From assembly GCF_041886205.1 (NCBI RefSeq), contig NZ_CP169029.1: a stretch of 64,000 bases of DNA; one strand, 5' to 3'. Every line of letters starts with the position of its first letter. Within the stretch, counting starts at the first letter, position 1. A program made the position numbers. The DNA comes from Escherichia coli. GTDB lineage: Bacteria; Pseudomonadota; Gammaproteobacteria; Enterobacterales; Enterobacteriaceae. Below are positions 55,001 through 58,000 of this stretch, piece after piece.

Positions 55001-58000
55001 GACCCAGTGCCCCATCAAAATTGATGTGCCGGAGTTTCGCTCTCGTTTTCTGCAGCTCTATCACACCCGTTATTTACGCCCGCTGCGCGACCACCTCGTC
55101 GCTACGGTCGAGAGCTACGCGCCGCTGATGGCACGCGCGCCGAAAACCTTTAACTTCTTCATTAACCAGCCGCTGGTGCGCAAACTCTCGGAAAAACATA
55201 TCGGCATGGTTGATTTGCCGCTGCTGTCGGTCCCCTCGCTACAACAACAAATGGTGGGGCATCGCTCGGCAAACATGACGCTGGAACAGCTTGAATCTCT
55301 CAATGCAGAGCAGAAAGCGCGCACAGTGTTGGTGGTGCAGGACCCCTTTACCAGCTATTACGATGCGCAAGTGGTGGCGGATTTTGTCCGTCTGGTCGAA
55401 AAATTAGGTTTCCAGCCTGTGTTACTGCCATTTTCGCCAAATGGCAAAGCCCAGCATATTAAAGGTTTTCTTAATCGTTTTGCGAAGACGGCGAAAAAGA
55501 CGGCGGATTTCCTCAACCGTATGGCGAAGCTGGGTATGCCAATGGTGGGCGTCGATCCGGCGCTGGTACTTTGTTATCGCGATGAATATAAACTGGCGCT
55601 GGGCGAGGAGCGTGGCGAGTTTAACGTCTTACTGGCGAATGAATGGCTGGCAAGCGCACTTGAGTCACAGCCAGTGGCTACAGTCAGCGGTGAATCATGG
55701 TATTTCTTTGGTCACTGTACCGAAGTTACCGCCTTGCCGGGTGCGCCAGCACAATGGGCCGCGATATTTGCCCGTTTTGGCGCGAAACTGGAAAATGTCA
55801 GCGTGGGTTGCTGCGGCATGGCAGGGACTTACGGACATGAAGCGAAAAACCATGAAAATTCGCTCGGGATCTATGAGTTATCCTGGCATCAGGCTATGCA
55901 GCGACTGCCGCGTAACCGCTGTCTGGCGACCGGATATTCCTGCCGTAGCCAGGTAAAACGGGTTGAAGGCACGGGGGTACGCCATCCTGTGCAGGCTTTA
56001 CTGGAGATTATTAAATGATATGGAAACGGAAAATCACCCTGGAAGCACTGAATGCTATGGGTGAAGGAAACATGGTGGGGTTCCTGGATATTCGCTTTGA
56101 ACATATTGGTGATGACACCCTTGAAGCGACAATGCCAGTAGACTCGCGGACAAAGCAGCCTTTCGGGTTGCTGCATGGAGGAGCATCCGTGGTACTGGCC
56201 GAAAGTATCGGTTCCGTTGCCGGTTATTTATGTACCGAAGGTGAGCAAAAAGTGGTTGGTCTGGAAATCAATGCTAACCACGTCCGCTCGGCACGAGAAG
56301 GGCGGGTGCGCGGCGTATGCAAACCGTTGCATCTCGGTTCGCGTCACCAGGTCTGGCAGATTGAAATCTTCGATGAGAAAGGGCGTTTGTGCTGTTCGTC
56401 ACGATTGACGACCGCCATTTTGTGACGTTGTCACCAGAAAAGTGTGACGCATATTGCTTTTGGTCATTATCTGCACAGTAAACGGTGGTATACTGTGCAG
56501 GTCTTGTCTAAAAGCGAGGATGCTATGTCTACTCAACTTGATCCCACCCAGCTGGCCATTGAATTTTTACGCCGTGACCAGAGCAATCTTTCACCTGCCC
56601 AATATCTCAAACGTCTGAAACAACTAGAACTTGAATTTGCTGACCTGCTTACTCTCTCTTCTGCTGAATTAAAAGAAGAAATCTACTTTGCCTGGCGTCT
56701 GGGCGTGCATTGATCCTGACTTAATGCCGCAAGTTCGCCAAATCGACCTGGATTAACCTCCGTCCAGGTTCGATGACCTTCTTAATACTGCTTATCTACC
56801 GCCTGATATTGTTCAAAAATAATACTAATCGCAGTTTGTGTTAAAACGGCGGGTTAGCTTTATGAGATTATTCTTATCGCCCCTTCAAGAGCTAAGCCAC
56901 TGAGAGTGCCGGAGATAAGCGCCGGATGGGGTAGAAACCCTTAAGCCTGTGTCGCACAGACTTAAGGGTTTTCTTATTTCTGAACGCTGCACTTTTTTAC
57001 CTATCTCTTAAATAGTCATTTTCAATACAACTTTTTCTTTTTCATCACAGCCTTAATGCTCCTTAGATAATAACCATTATCTAACAATGAGATACCTAAT
57101 TCTTAGCGTGCCTGTTAACCCACACATCAGGGTCTATGCTTATTAAAAGCAGGCAAAAAGCATGTTTTACGGTAAAGCCCCTGCGTTTGCTGGGTTGAAC
57201 TGATAATCATTATCACTAACATGCTGTTATACGCTGAAAGCGATGAAGTGAGGTAAATCGATGGACATGCATTCAGGAACCTTTAACCCACAAGATTTCG
57301 CCTGGCAAGGCTTAACGCTGACACCCGCAGCGGCGATACACATCCGTGAGCTGGTGGCAAAGCAGCCGGGTATGGTCGGCGTGCGCTTAGGCGTGAAGCA
57401 AACGGGCTGCGCGGGCTTTGGCTATGTGCTCGACAGTGTTAGCGAGCCGGACAAAGACGATCTGCTGTTTGAACACGACGGCGCGAAGCTGTTTGTCCCG
57501 CTGCAAGCGATGCCGTTTATTGATGGCACGGAAGTCGATTTCGTTCGTGAAGGACTTAATCAGATATTCAAATTTCACAACCCTAAAGCCCAGAATGAAT
57601 GTGGCTGTGGCGAAAGCTTTGGGGTATAGGCGGTACTATGTCTCGTAATACTGAAGCAACTGACGATGTCAAAACCTGGACCGGCGGCCCGCTGAATTAT
57701 AAAGAAGGATTCTTCACCCAGTTAGCCACCGATGAGCTGGCAAAGGGGATAAACGAAGAGGTGGTGCGCGCAATTTCGGCGAAGCGTAATGAGCCGGAGT
57801 GGATGCTGGAGTTTCGTCTAAACGCCTATCGCGCATGGCTGGAGATGGAAGAACCGCACTGGTTGAAAGCGCACTACGACAAGCTGAATTATCAGGATTA
57901 CAGCTACTACTCAGCACCATTGTGCGGTAATTGTGACGACACTTGCGCGTCTGAACCTGGCGCGGTGCAGCAAACTGGCGCGAACGCCTTTTTAAGTAAA

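What the first reader, a model, noticed from the sequence alone, without database searches (positions are those of the whole stretch)
56714..57260. Long ydiH–sufA intergenic region with a terminator-bearing candidate sRNA and a Fur box
The ~550-bp region upstream of sufA contains a strong terminator-like hairpin (about 56935..56975, + strand) not attached to any ORF, consistent with the RydB sRNA position in K-12, and a clear Fur box (57201..57215). I could not confirm the sRNA from sequence memory, so its exact ends are uncertain.
Basis: partly seen in the sequence, partly recalled or inferred. Interest (0 to 1): 0.25.

Follow-up and report, generated by a model that had tools for sequence, protein, structure and literature searches.

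The report
RydB sRNA, terminator, sufA Fur box
The long gap between ydiH and sufA in this E. coli K-12 sequence holds the already-known small RNA gene rydB with its own terminator hairpin, followed by the well-studied iron- and oxidant-controlled sufA promoter with its Fur box, so the finding is correct but ordinary.

Summary
The window is identical to E. coli K-12 MG1655 here. Rfam's rydB model matches 56879..56939 (+) at 81.6 bits (gathering score 50). The hairpin at 56935..56971 plus its U-tract folds at -22 kcal/mol (z = -5.7). It is single-copy in 5420 of 5426 E. coli genomes and shows compensatory changes across five genera, so it is rydB's intrinsic terminator. The Fur box at 57201..57215 is a perfect 7-1-7 motif, the only one in 64 kb. 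It lies between the -35 and -10 of the sufA promoter and is almost invariant across genera. There is one refinement. Published Term-seq puts the dominant, very abundant RydB 3' end at 56939, inside the 5' arm of the hairpin. A conserved extended -10 element puts the start at G56879. Mature RydB is therefore probably a 61-nt closed fold whose terminator has been clipped off, and the K-12 annotation (56867..56934) looks slightly misplaced. RydB's function remains unknown. Interest is low and the finding is already known.

The parts
56525..56713 (+). ydiH coding sequence (62 aa), the upstream flank
   Evidence: ORF list; K-12 annotation b1685; translation.
56863..56871 (+). Probable rydB promoter: an extended -10 element, TG-a-GATTAT
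   Evidence: In 70 unique canonical rydB copies: T(-15) 64%, G(-14) 68%, A(-11) 68% and T(-7) 94%, counting the G of GCCCC as +1. This is an inference; no transcription-start data were accessible.
56879..56939 (+). RydB RNA as modelled by Rfam, and probably the mature 61-nt species. It has a closing stem (56880-83 with 56928-31), two internal hairpins and an 8-nt 3' tail.
   Evidence: RF00118 at 81.6 bits, model positions 1-61. Term-seq 3' end at K-12 1764708 = window 56939. Closing stem kept through many compensatory variants.
56867..56934 (+). rydB as annotated in the K-12 MG1655 record (b4430, 68 nt)
   Evidence: The 5' end falls inside the inferred -10 element, and the 3' end is 5 nt short of the Term-seq end.
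56935..56982 (+). rydB intrinsic terminator: a 17-position stem with one C/A mismatch and a 3-nt loop (56935..56971), then a U-rich tract (to about 56982)
   Evidence: Fold and z-score. Covariation in 27 sequences from Escherichia, Citrobacter, Salmonella, Leclercia and Silvania: 93.5% of cells paired, 7 of 17 pairs with changes on both sides, 0 of 500 shuffles as high. Single copy per genome.
56993..57032 (+). OxyR-binding region of the sufA promoter (about -236 to -197)
   Evidence: The positions are recalled from Lee, Yeo and Roe 2004 and were not read here. The block CTAT..ATAG..ATAC at 57001..57028 is strongly conserved across genera. OxyR activation of sufABCDSE is listed in PMC4207228.
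57073..57103 (+). IHF-binding region (about -156 to -126)
   Evidence: Positions recalled from memory. In other genera the aligned stretch reads AATCAATGCATTG, which fits WATCAANNNNTTR. IHF activation of suf is listed in PMC4207228.
57174..57199 (+). IscR type-2 site, AAAGCCCCTGCGTTTGCTGGGTTGAA
   Evidence: Single regex match in the 64 kb window (the motif itself is recalled from memory). The published PsufA mutants (deletion of -56 to -51, and -50 C to G) fall inside it when +1 = 57229. Conserved across genera.
57201..57215 (+). Fur box, a perfect 7-1-7 inverted repeat, between the -35 (TTGAAC, 57195..57200) and the -10 (TAACAT, 57217..57222)
   Evidence: The published Fur-site mutant '-26 ATA -24' maps to 57203..57205.
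57229..57229 (+). sufA transcription start (+1), giving a 32-nt 5' UTR
   Evidence: It is the only position at which -50 is C and -26..-24 is ATA, as the published strain descriptions require.
57261..57629 (+). sufA coding sequence, the downstream flank

Best explanation
The spacer contains two independent, already-described units. (1) The rydB gene. A sigma-70 promoter of the extended -10 type (56863..56871) starts transcription at G56879 (inferred). The RNA folds into a compact structure whose 5' and 3' ends pair. Transcription stops at the long hairpin plus U-tract at 56935..56982 (inferred from sequence and covariation). The roughly 100-nt primary transcript is then trimmed to the abundant 61-nt RNA ending at 56939. 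The end point is shown by published Term-seq. The trimming route is inferred by analogy with M1, 6S and tmRNA maturation: an endonuclease cut followed by 3' exonucleases that stall about 8 nt after the closing stem. RydB is Hfq-independent and has no validated target. My best guess, with low confidence, is that its invariant loops bind a conserved protein or RNA partner. The terminator probably also keeps the very strong rydB transcription from running across the suf control region, which begins about 10 nt downstream. (2) The sufA promoter, with +1 at 57229. Fur bound at 57201..57215 sits between the -35 and -10 and blocks RNA polymerase when iron is sufficient. IscR (57174..57199), IHF and OxyR sites upstream activate the promoter under Fe-S or oxidative stress. 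These suf functions are established knowledge.
For: Identity with K-12 and the curated rydB annotation. Rfam rydB at 81.6 bits, full length. Hairpin stability z = -5.7. Hairpin covariation. A terminator follows the RydB core in most of the scanned loci from many genera. rydB plus its terminator occurs in several unrelated gene contexts. The extended -10 is conserved in exact register. The closing stem covaries. Term-seq 3' end at 56939 scores 2.2-4.1 million, comparable to tmRNA and CsrB and above 6S RNA. The Salmonella rydB annotation of 105 nt matches the core plus terminator, 103-104 nt. RepRanger tags rydB with a Rho-independent terminator. The Fur box is perfect, unique in the window, sited in the promoter and conserved. 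Fur, OxyR, IHF and IscR regulation of suf is in the literature.
Against: No 3' end after the U-tract appears in the curated Term-seq table. However, that table keeps only the strongest peak within 100 bp, so this is uninformative. No transcription-start data could be read, so +1 = 56879 rests on promoter geometry and disagrees with the K-12 annotated 5' end (56867). The processing step and the enzymes involved are inferred, not shown. The simple terminator scanner did not call the hairpin. The OxyR and IHF coordinates and the IscR motif come from memory.
Confidence: 0.9

Rival explanations
1. RydB is not an independent gene. It is cut out of the 3' UTR of the ydiH mRNA, and the hairpin is really the ydiH terminator.
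For: ydiH is on the same strand about 165 nt upstream, and no terminator-like site lies between them. In many genera the RydB element sits 50-120 nt after a co-oriented ORF.
Against: A promoter-like extended -10 is conserved at a fixed distance from the first base of the fold in 70 unique copies. In most Citrobacter two other genes (about 1.8 kb) separate ydiH from rydB, and in Pantoea, Erwinia, Klebsiella and Enterobacter the neighbours are unrelated. ydiH read-through may still use the same terminator, so the two readings are not mutually exclusive.
Confidence: 0.1
2. The 56939 end is made directly, by pausing or termination at the RydB fold, and the hairpin is only a back-up terminator or insulator for the suf control region.
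For: The dominant 3' end lies upstream of the hairpin. The hairpin ends about 10-20 nt before the OxyR region.
Against: The sequence after the closing stem (UAGAAACC) has no U-tract, so it does not look like an intrinsic terminator. A terminator follows the core in nearly all genera, including places where suf is not downstream. The classical stable RNAs in the same dataset are likewise listed at their mature ends, which general knowledge says are processed.
Confidence: 0.12
3. The hairpin is a copy of a dispersed palindromic repeat (REP/BIME-like) rather than a dedicated terminator.
For: It is a long near-perfect palindrome. One strain (SC434) carries an IS1397-family element inserted at its base, and from general knowledge IS1397 targets palindromic units.
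Against: It is single-copy: 5420 of 5426 genomes have it, with a median of 1 and a maximum of 2 places per genome in a sensitive search. It always follows rydB and covaries as an RNA stem. RepRanger classes it as a Rho-independent terminator, not a REP.
Confidence: 0.02
4. RydB plus the hairpin is a cis-acting leader (a riboswitch or attenuator) that controls the suf operon.
For: It is a compact fold with invariant loops followed by a terminator, upstream of an operon on the same strand.
Against: The sufA +1 is at 57229, about 250 nt beyond the terminator, with its own Fur, IscR, IHF and OxyR sites. In Salmonella diarizonae and C. braakii other genes lie between rydB and sufA, and in many genera rydB is not linked to suf at all.
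Confidence: 0.03

Closest known systems
RydB sRNA (Rfam RF00118; E. coli b4430; also called tpe7 or IS082)
   Same: It is this RNA. The sequence is identical to K-12, the covariance-model match is full length, and the position between ydiH and sufA is the same.
   Different: Nothing biological differs. The database boundaries (56867..56934) disagree with the Rfam model, the Term-seq end and the promoter geometry (56879..56939), and the record does not annotate the terminator.
Small stable RNAs whose terminator is removed during 3' maturation (M1/rnpB, 6S/ssrS, tmRNA/ssrA, 4.5S/ffs)
   Same: The 5' and 3' ends are paired in a closing stem. The dominant 3' end lies upstream of the terminator. 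The abundance of the 3' end in Term-seq is in the same range. RydB is listed as Hfq-independent.
   Different: RydB is much smaller (61 nt). No partner or function is known. The maturation pathway is inferred here, not demonstrated.
Classical Hfq-dependent base-pairing sRNAs, e.g. RprA (also in this window, 51168..51275)
   Same: A short intergenic gene with its own promoter and an intrinsic terminator. Multicopy RydB is reported to lower rpoS expression.
   Different: The dominant RydB species lacks the terminator hairpin and U-tail that Hfq normally binds. It is listed as Hfq-independent. It was only weakly enriched with Hfq in Salmonella, 4 versus 10 reads. It has no validated targets.
Fur-repressed promoters with an operator overlapping the core promoter
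   Same: A perfect 7-1-7 Fur motif lies between the -35 and -10. Fur repression of suf is published.
   Different: None. This is the documented sufA Fur box.

Membership tests
Rfam RF00118 rydB | Covariance-model score at or above the gathering score (50 bits) over the whole model | tested here: met
   81.6 bits, model positions 1-61 of 61, E = 9e-18; repeated.
Rfam RF00118 rydB | A closing stem pairing the 5' and 3' ends, supported by covariation | tested here: met
   Variants include GCCCC/GGGGC, GUCCCU/AGGGAC, GCUCC/GGAGC, GUUCC/GGAAC, AUCCC/GGGAU and AUUCUUU/AAAGGAU. Mean helix length is 5.16, against a maximum of 5.10 in 300 partner shuffles. The margin is modest because most stems are C-rich paired with G-rich.
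Rfam RF00118 rydB | Internal hairpins P2 and P3 | tested here: inconclusive
   The paired positions are invariant in all 106 sequences, so they say nothing about structure. P3 was also fixed by the 20-mer used to collect the loci.
Rfam RF00118 rydB | Expressed as a discrete small RNA | not testable with these tools
   Published Term-seq lists a strong rydB 3' end in the table's three growth-condition tabs.
Intrinsic (Rho-independent) terminator | A stable stem-loop, significantly more stable than chance | tested here: met
   -22 kcal/mol, z = -5.7, 0 of 200 shuffles as stable.
Intrinsic (Rho-independent) terminator | A U-rich tract directly after the stem | tested here: met
   UUUUCUUAUUUCU follows the G+C core of the stem. 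The rule-based scanner did not call the site, probably because of the internal C/A mismatch.
Intrinsic (Rho-independent) terminator | The structure is conserved through compensatory changes | tested here: met
   93.5% of cells paired, 7 of 17 pairs with changes on both sides, covariation 0.235 against 0.145 for shuffles (0 of 500 as high) and 0.113 or less for slid controls.
Intrinsic (Rho-independent) terminator | RNA 3' ends map to the U-tract | tested here: inconclusive
   The curated table lists only 56939, but peaks within 100 bp were merged into the strongest.
Fur box | A match to the TGATAATnATTATCA (7-1-7) consensus beyond chance | tested here: met
   Zero mismatches and unique in the 64 kb window.
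Fur box | Overlaps the core promoter of an iron-regulated gene, and is conserved | tested here: met
   Positions -28 to -14 relative to +1 = 57229; nearly invariant in 23 sequences from several genera.
Fur box | Bound by Fur, conferring iron-dependent repression | not testable with these tools
   Reported in the literature.
Hfq-dependent base-pairing sRNA | The mature RNA keeps the terminator hairpin and U-tail, and depends on Hfq | tested here: not met
   The dominant 3' end precedes the hairpin. RydB is listed among Hfq-independent sRNAs.
REP/BIME dispersed palindromes | Many copies per genome | tested here: not met
   A median of one place per genome, at most two.
3' UTR-derived sRNA of ydiH | No promoter of its own, and obligatory linkage to the parent gene | tested here: not met
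   A conserved extended -10. rydB is separated from ydiH in Citrobacter and unlinked from it elsewhere.

The most novel reading that the evidence does not exclude
RydB may not be a conventional base-pairing sRNA. It could instead be a very abundant, 61-nt, terminator-clipped 'small stable RNA'. Its loops (AGAGCUA and GAGUGCCGGAGAUAAGCGCCGG) are invariant across several families of Enterobacterales. The family has diverged into at least two subtypes, with 2-3 copies in some genomes. RydB might therefore act by binding a conserved protein or RNA partner that has not yet been identified.
Probability: 0.3. Interest if true: 0.5.

Novelty: already known. Interest (0 to 1): 0.12.

Why it matters
For genome annotation the finding matters little. 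rydB, its position and the sufA Fur box have been documented since the early 2000s. There are three modest useful points. First, automatic annotation (PGAP) leaves this spacer empty in thousands of E. coli genomes. Second, the curated K-12 boundaries of rydB appear to be shifted relative to the promoter, the fold and the mapped 3' end. Third, RydB is among the most abundant small-RNA 3' ends in the cell and is strongly conserved, yet it still has no known function.

Tried and rejected
The rule-based terminator scan found nothing; I put this down to the stem's internal mismatch and relied on folding and covariation instead. The first literature search for 'RydB' matched 'Rydberg'. Wassarman 2001 and Lee 2008 are not held in the library. 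The Rend-seq paper has no supplementary files held, and the TERMITe supplements hold no rydB entry. The cap on new papers was then reached, so no transcription-start data and no second 3'-end dataset could be read. The absence of a post-hairpin 3' end in the Adams table was considered and rejected as evidence, because of that study's 100-bp peak merging. The REP-like repeat reading was rejected on copy number. The ydiH 3'-UTR origin and the suf cis-leader readings were rejected on promoter conservation and variable gene context. A sub-threshold Rfam scan of the spacer found nothing else; the one extra hit, mir-1278 at 22 bits, is chance. My first YdiH query used the wrong reading frame and was redone.

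Full report
WHAT IS THERE. The stretch 56714..57260 is the 547-nt spacer between the stop codon of ydiH (56525..56713) and the start codon of sufA (57261). It is 100% identical, in reverse complement, to E. coli K-12 MG1655. The conversion is K-12 position = 1821647 minus window position. The spacer is present in 5412 of 5426 complete E. coli genomes, and RefSeq's automatic annotation places no feature in it.

THE sRNA. A scan of the whole window against Rfam gives a full-length match to rydB (RF00118) at 56879..56939 on the + strand, at 81.6 bits against a gathering score of 50. A permissive scan of the spacer finds no other family. The curated K-12 record annotates rydB (b4430) at 1764713..1764780 (-), which is window 56867..56934.

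THE HAIRPIN. It begins directly after the annotated gene. It is a stem of 17 positions with one C/A mismatch and a 3-nt loop (56935..56971), followed by UCUUAUUUCU. Its MFE is -22 kcal/mol and its z-score -5.7, and none of 200 shuffles folds as well. The rule-based scanner missed it, probably because of the internal mismatch.

In Escherichia, Citrobacter, Salmonella, Leclercia and Silvania the same AACCCUUAAG...CUUAAGGGUU hairpin follows the core. In most other genera a different G+C-rich hairpin with a U-tract does.

On an alignment of 27 distinct hairpins, 93.5% of cells pair and 7 of 17 pairs show changes on both sides. The covariation score (0.235) exceeds all 500 shuffles and all slid controls. 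The hairpin is single-copy (5420 of 5426 genomes, median one place per genome), so it is not a dispersed repeat. RepRanger (2025) independently tags rydB with a Rho-independent terminator. I conclude that it is rydB's intrinsic terminator.

AN INDEPENDENT UNIT. rydB and its terminator travel together. The neighbours are menI/ydiH and sufA in Escherichia, Salmonella and Leclercia. In most Citrobacter a LysR-family gene lies immediately upstream, with about 1.8 kb inserted after ydiH. In Pantoea and Erwinia the neighbours are a PTS transporter and a LysR gene, and elsewhere the contexts differ again. In Salmonella, Sittka 2008 lists rydB between ydiH and the oppositely oriented STM1368. This argues against RydB being a piece of the ydiH 3' UTR or a leader of the suf operon.

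ENDS OF THE RNA. In 70 unique canonical copies the upstream sequence fits an extended -10 promoter in exact register: T(-15), G(-14), A(-11) at 68% and T(-7) at 94%, with the G of GCCCC as +1. This puts the start at G56879, position 1 of the Rfam model. The K-12 annotated 5' end (56867) would lie inside the -10 element. This is an inference, because I could not read any transcription-start dataset.

For the 3' end, the curated Term-seq table of Adams et al. 2021 lists a 'primary' rydB end at K-12 1764708 (-), which is window 56939. That is the last base of the Rfam match and lies within the 5' arm of the hairpin. Its score is 2.2 million (LB, OD 0.4) and 4.1 million (LB, OD 2.0). In the same table tmRNA scores 2.2 and 0.9 million, CsrB 1.2 and 3.9, 6S RNA 0.4 and 0.5, and lpp 0.18 and 0.08.

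No end is listed after the U-tract. However, that study kept only the strongest peak within 100 bp, so the absence means nothing. The Salmonella annotation (105 nt) matches the core plus terminator, which I measure at 103-104 nt in two Salmonella subspecies.

The simplest reading is as follows. A primary transcript of about 100 nt ends at the terminator. It is trimmed to a 61-nt RNA made of the closed fold plus an 8-nt tail, as happens for M1, 6S and tmRNA. The maturation of those RNAs is established knowledge. Its application to RydB is my inference, at about 0.6 confidence.

THE FOLD. Across 106 distinct sequences, AGAGCUA and GAGUGCCGGAGAUAAGCGCCGG are invariant, although 20 nt of the latter were fixed by my search pattern. 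The closing stem is maintained through many different pairs. A divergent subtype (ACCCC..ACAGAGCUAACGCCAC-loop-GUGAGUGCC...) still passes the Rfam threshold at 51-69 bits. It occurs in other loci, and some genomes hold two or three family members.

FUNCTION. The papers I could read describe RydB as Hfq-independent. It was only weakly enriched with Hfq in Salmonella. It has no known targets or regulators and has been linked only to lowered rpoS expression when overproduced. It also changes in several transcriptome studies. Its mechanism is therefore open. The invariant loops suggest a conserved binding partner, but that is a guess.

THE FUR BOX AND THE sufA PROMOTER. TGATAATCATTATCA at 57201..57215 is a perfect 7-1-7 Fur motif and the only perfect one in the window. 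Published PsufA mutants are described as '-50 C to G', 'deletion of -56 to -51' and '-26 ATA -24 to TAT'. Only +1 = 57229 satisfies these. That gives a 32-nt 5' UTR, a -10 of TAACAT (57217..57222) and a -35 of TTGAAC (57195..57200), with the Fur box between them.

An IscR type-2 motif matches once, at 57174..57199 (the motif is from memory). Alignment of 330 nt upstream of sufA from 23 distinct sequences shows the Fur box plus -10 almost invariant. The IscR site, an OxyR-type CTAT..ATAG..ATAC block (57001..57028) and an IHF-like site are all conserved. Regulation of suf by Fur, OxyR, IHF and IscR is documented. The exact OxyR and IHF coordinates I give are recalled, not read.

VERDICT. The only additions are a boundary correction for rydB, the evidence that the hairpin is a terminator that the mature RNA does not retain, and the reminder that a very abundant, strongly conserved RNA still lacks a function.

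Noticed in passing
window 51168..51275 (-), 20817..20941 (+), 24781..24939 (+), 3054..3096 (-): Four other Rfam matches above the gathering score in the window: RprA (118.5 bits), the Phe leader (75), STnc540 (67.4) and ES036/CssrF (55.4).
   Followed up: no
window 56867..56934 versus 56879..56939: The curated K-12 rydB boundaries disagree with the Rfam model, the published Term-seq 3' end and the conserved extended -10 geometry. The annotated 5' end lies inside the inferred -10 element.
   Followed up: partly
L002 1560..3001 (E. coli SC434); insertion at window 56936..56938: An IS3-family element, annotated as IS1397-like, is inserted with an AAC target duplication exactly between the RydB core and its terminator hairpin. 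It separates the two in this soil isolate.
   Followed up: partly
L007, L012, L018, L020, L025/L026, L029/L030, L033/L034, L111/L112 and others: A divergent rydB subtype (ACCCC..ACAGAGCUAACGCCAC-variable hairpin-GUGAGUGCC..) occurs in Kosakonia, Phytobacter, Rouxiella, Sodalis, Mangrovibacter and some Pantoea, in unrelated loci. Some genomes hold 2-3 family members. These copies score 51-69 bits against RF00118.
   Followed up: partly
window 57064..57083: A perfect 8-4-8 palindrome, TAGATAAT-AACC-ATTATCTA, built from Fur-box-like half sites, lies at -165 to -146 of PsufA and partly overlaps the remembered IHF region at its 5' edge. It is complete only in Escherichia. In B2-type strains the spacer reads AATC.
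   Followed up: no
window 57127..57141: The block CAGGGTCTATGCTTA (-102 to -88 of PsufA) is invariant or nearly so across genera. It is not among the OxyR, IHF, IscR or Fur sites I could place. It might be an NsrR-type site, but that was not verified.
   Followed up: no
L006, L008, L017, L036 and other Citrobacter loci, upstream of rydB: Most Citrobacter carry about 1.8 kb inserted between ydiH and rydB. It holds two genes: a LysR-family regulator ending 64-78 nt before rydB, and a divergently oriented ~300-aa gene that I did not identify.
   Followed up: no
window 56714..56870: Within E. coli, nearly all substitutions between K-12 and the B2-type lineages fall in the first ~160 nt after ydiH. 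The RydB core has one change (plus one in the annotated 5' extension) and the hairpin has none. This stretch also contains a CCTGGA...TCCAGG hairpin (about 56749..56770) with no U-tract.
   Followed up: no
L005, L042, L074/L075, L091: The 20-mer also hit two Bacteroidales MAG contigs with different flanks, so these are not rydB. It hit a 300-bp 'Microvirga' contig whose rydB region closely matches the Salmonella diarizonae locus (L108), and two contigs labelled Martelella alba that carry enterobacterial-type rydB copies. The last two look like contamination or mislabelling.
   Followed up: no
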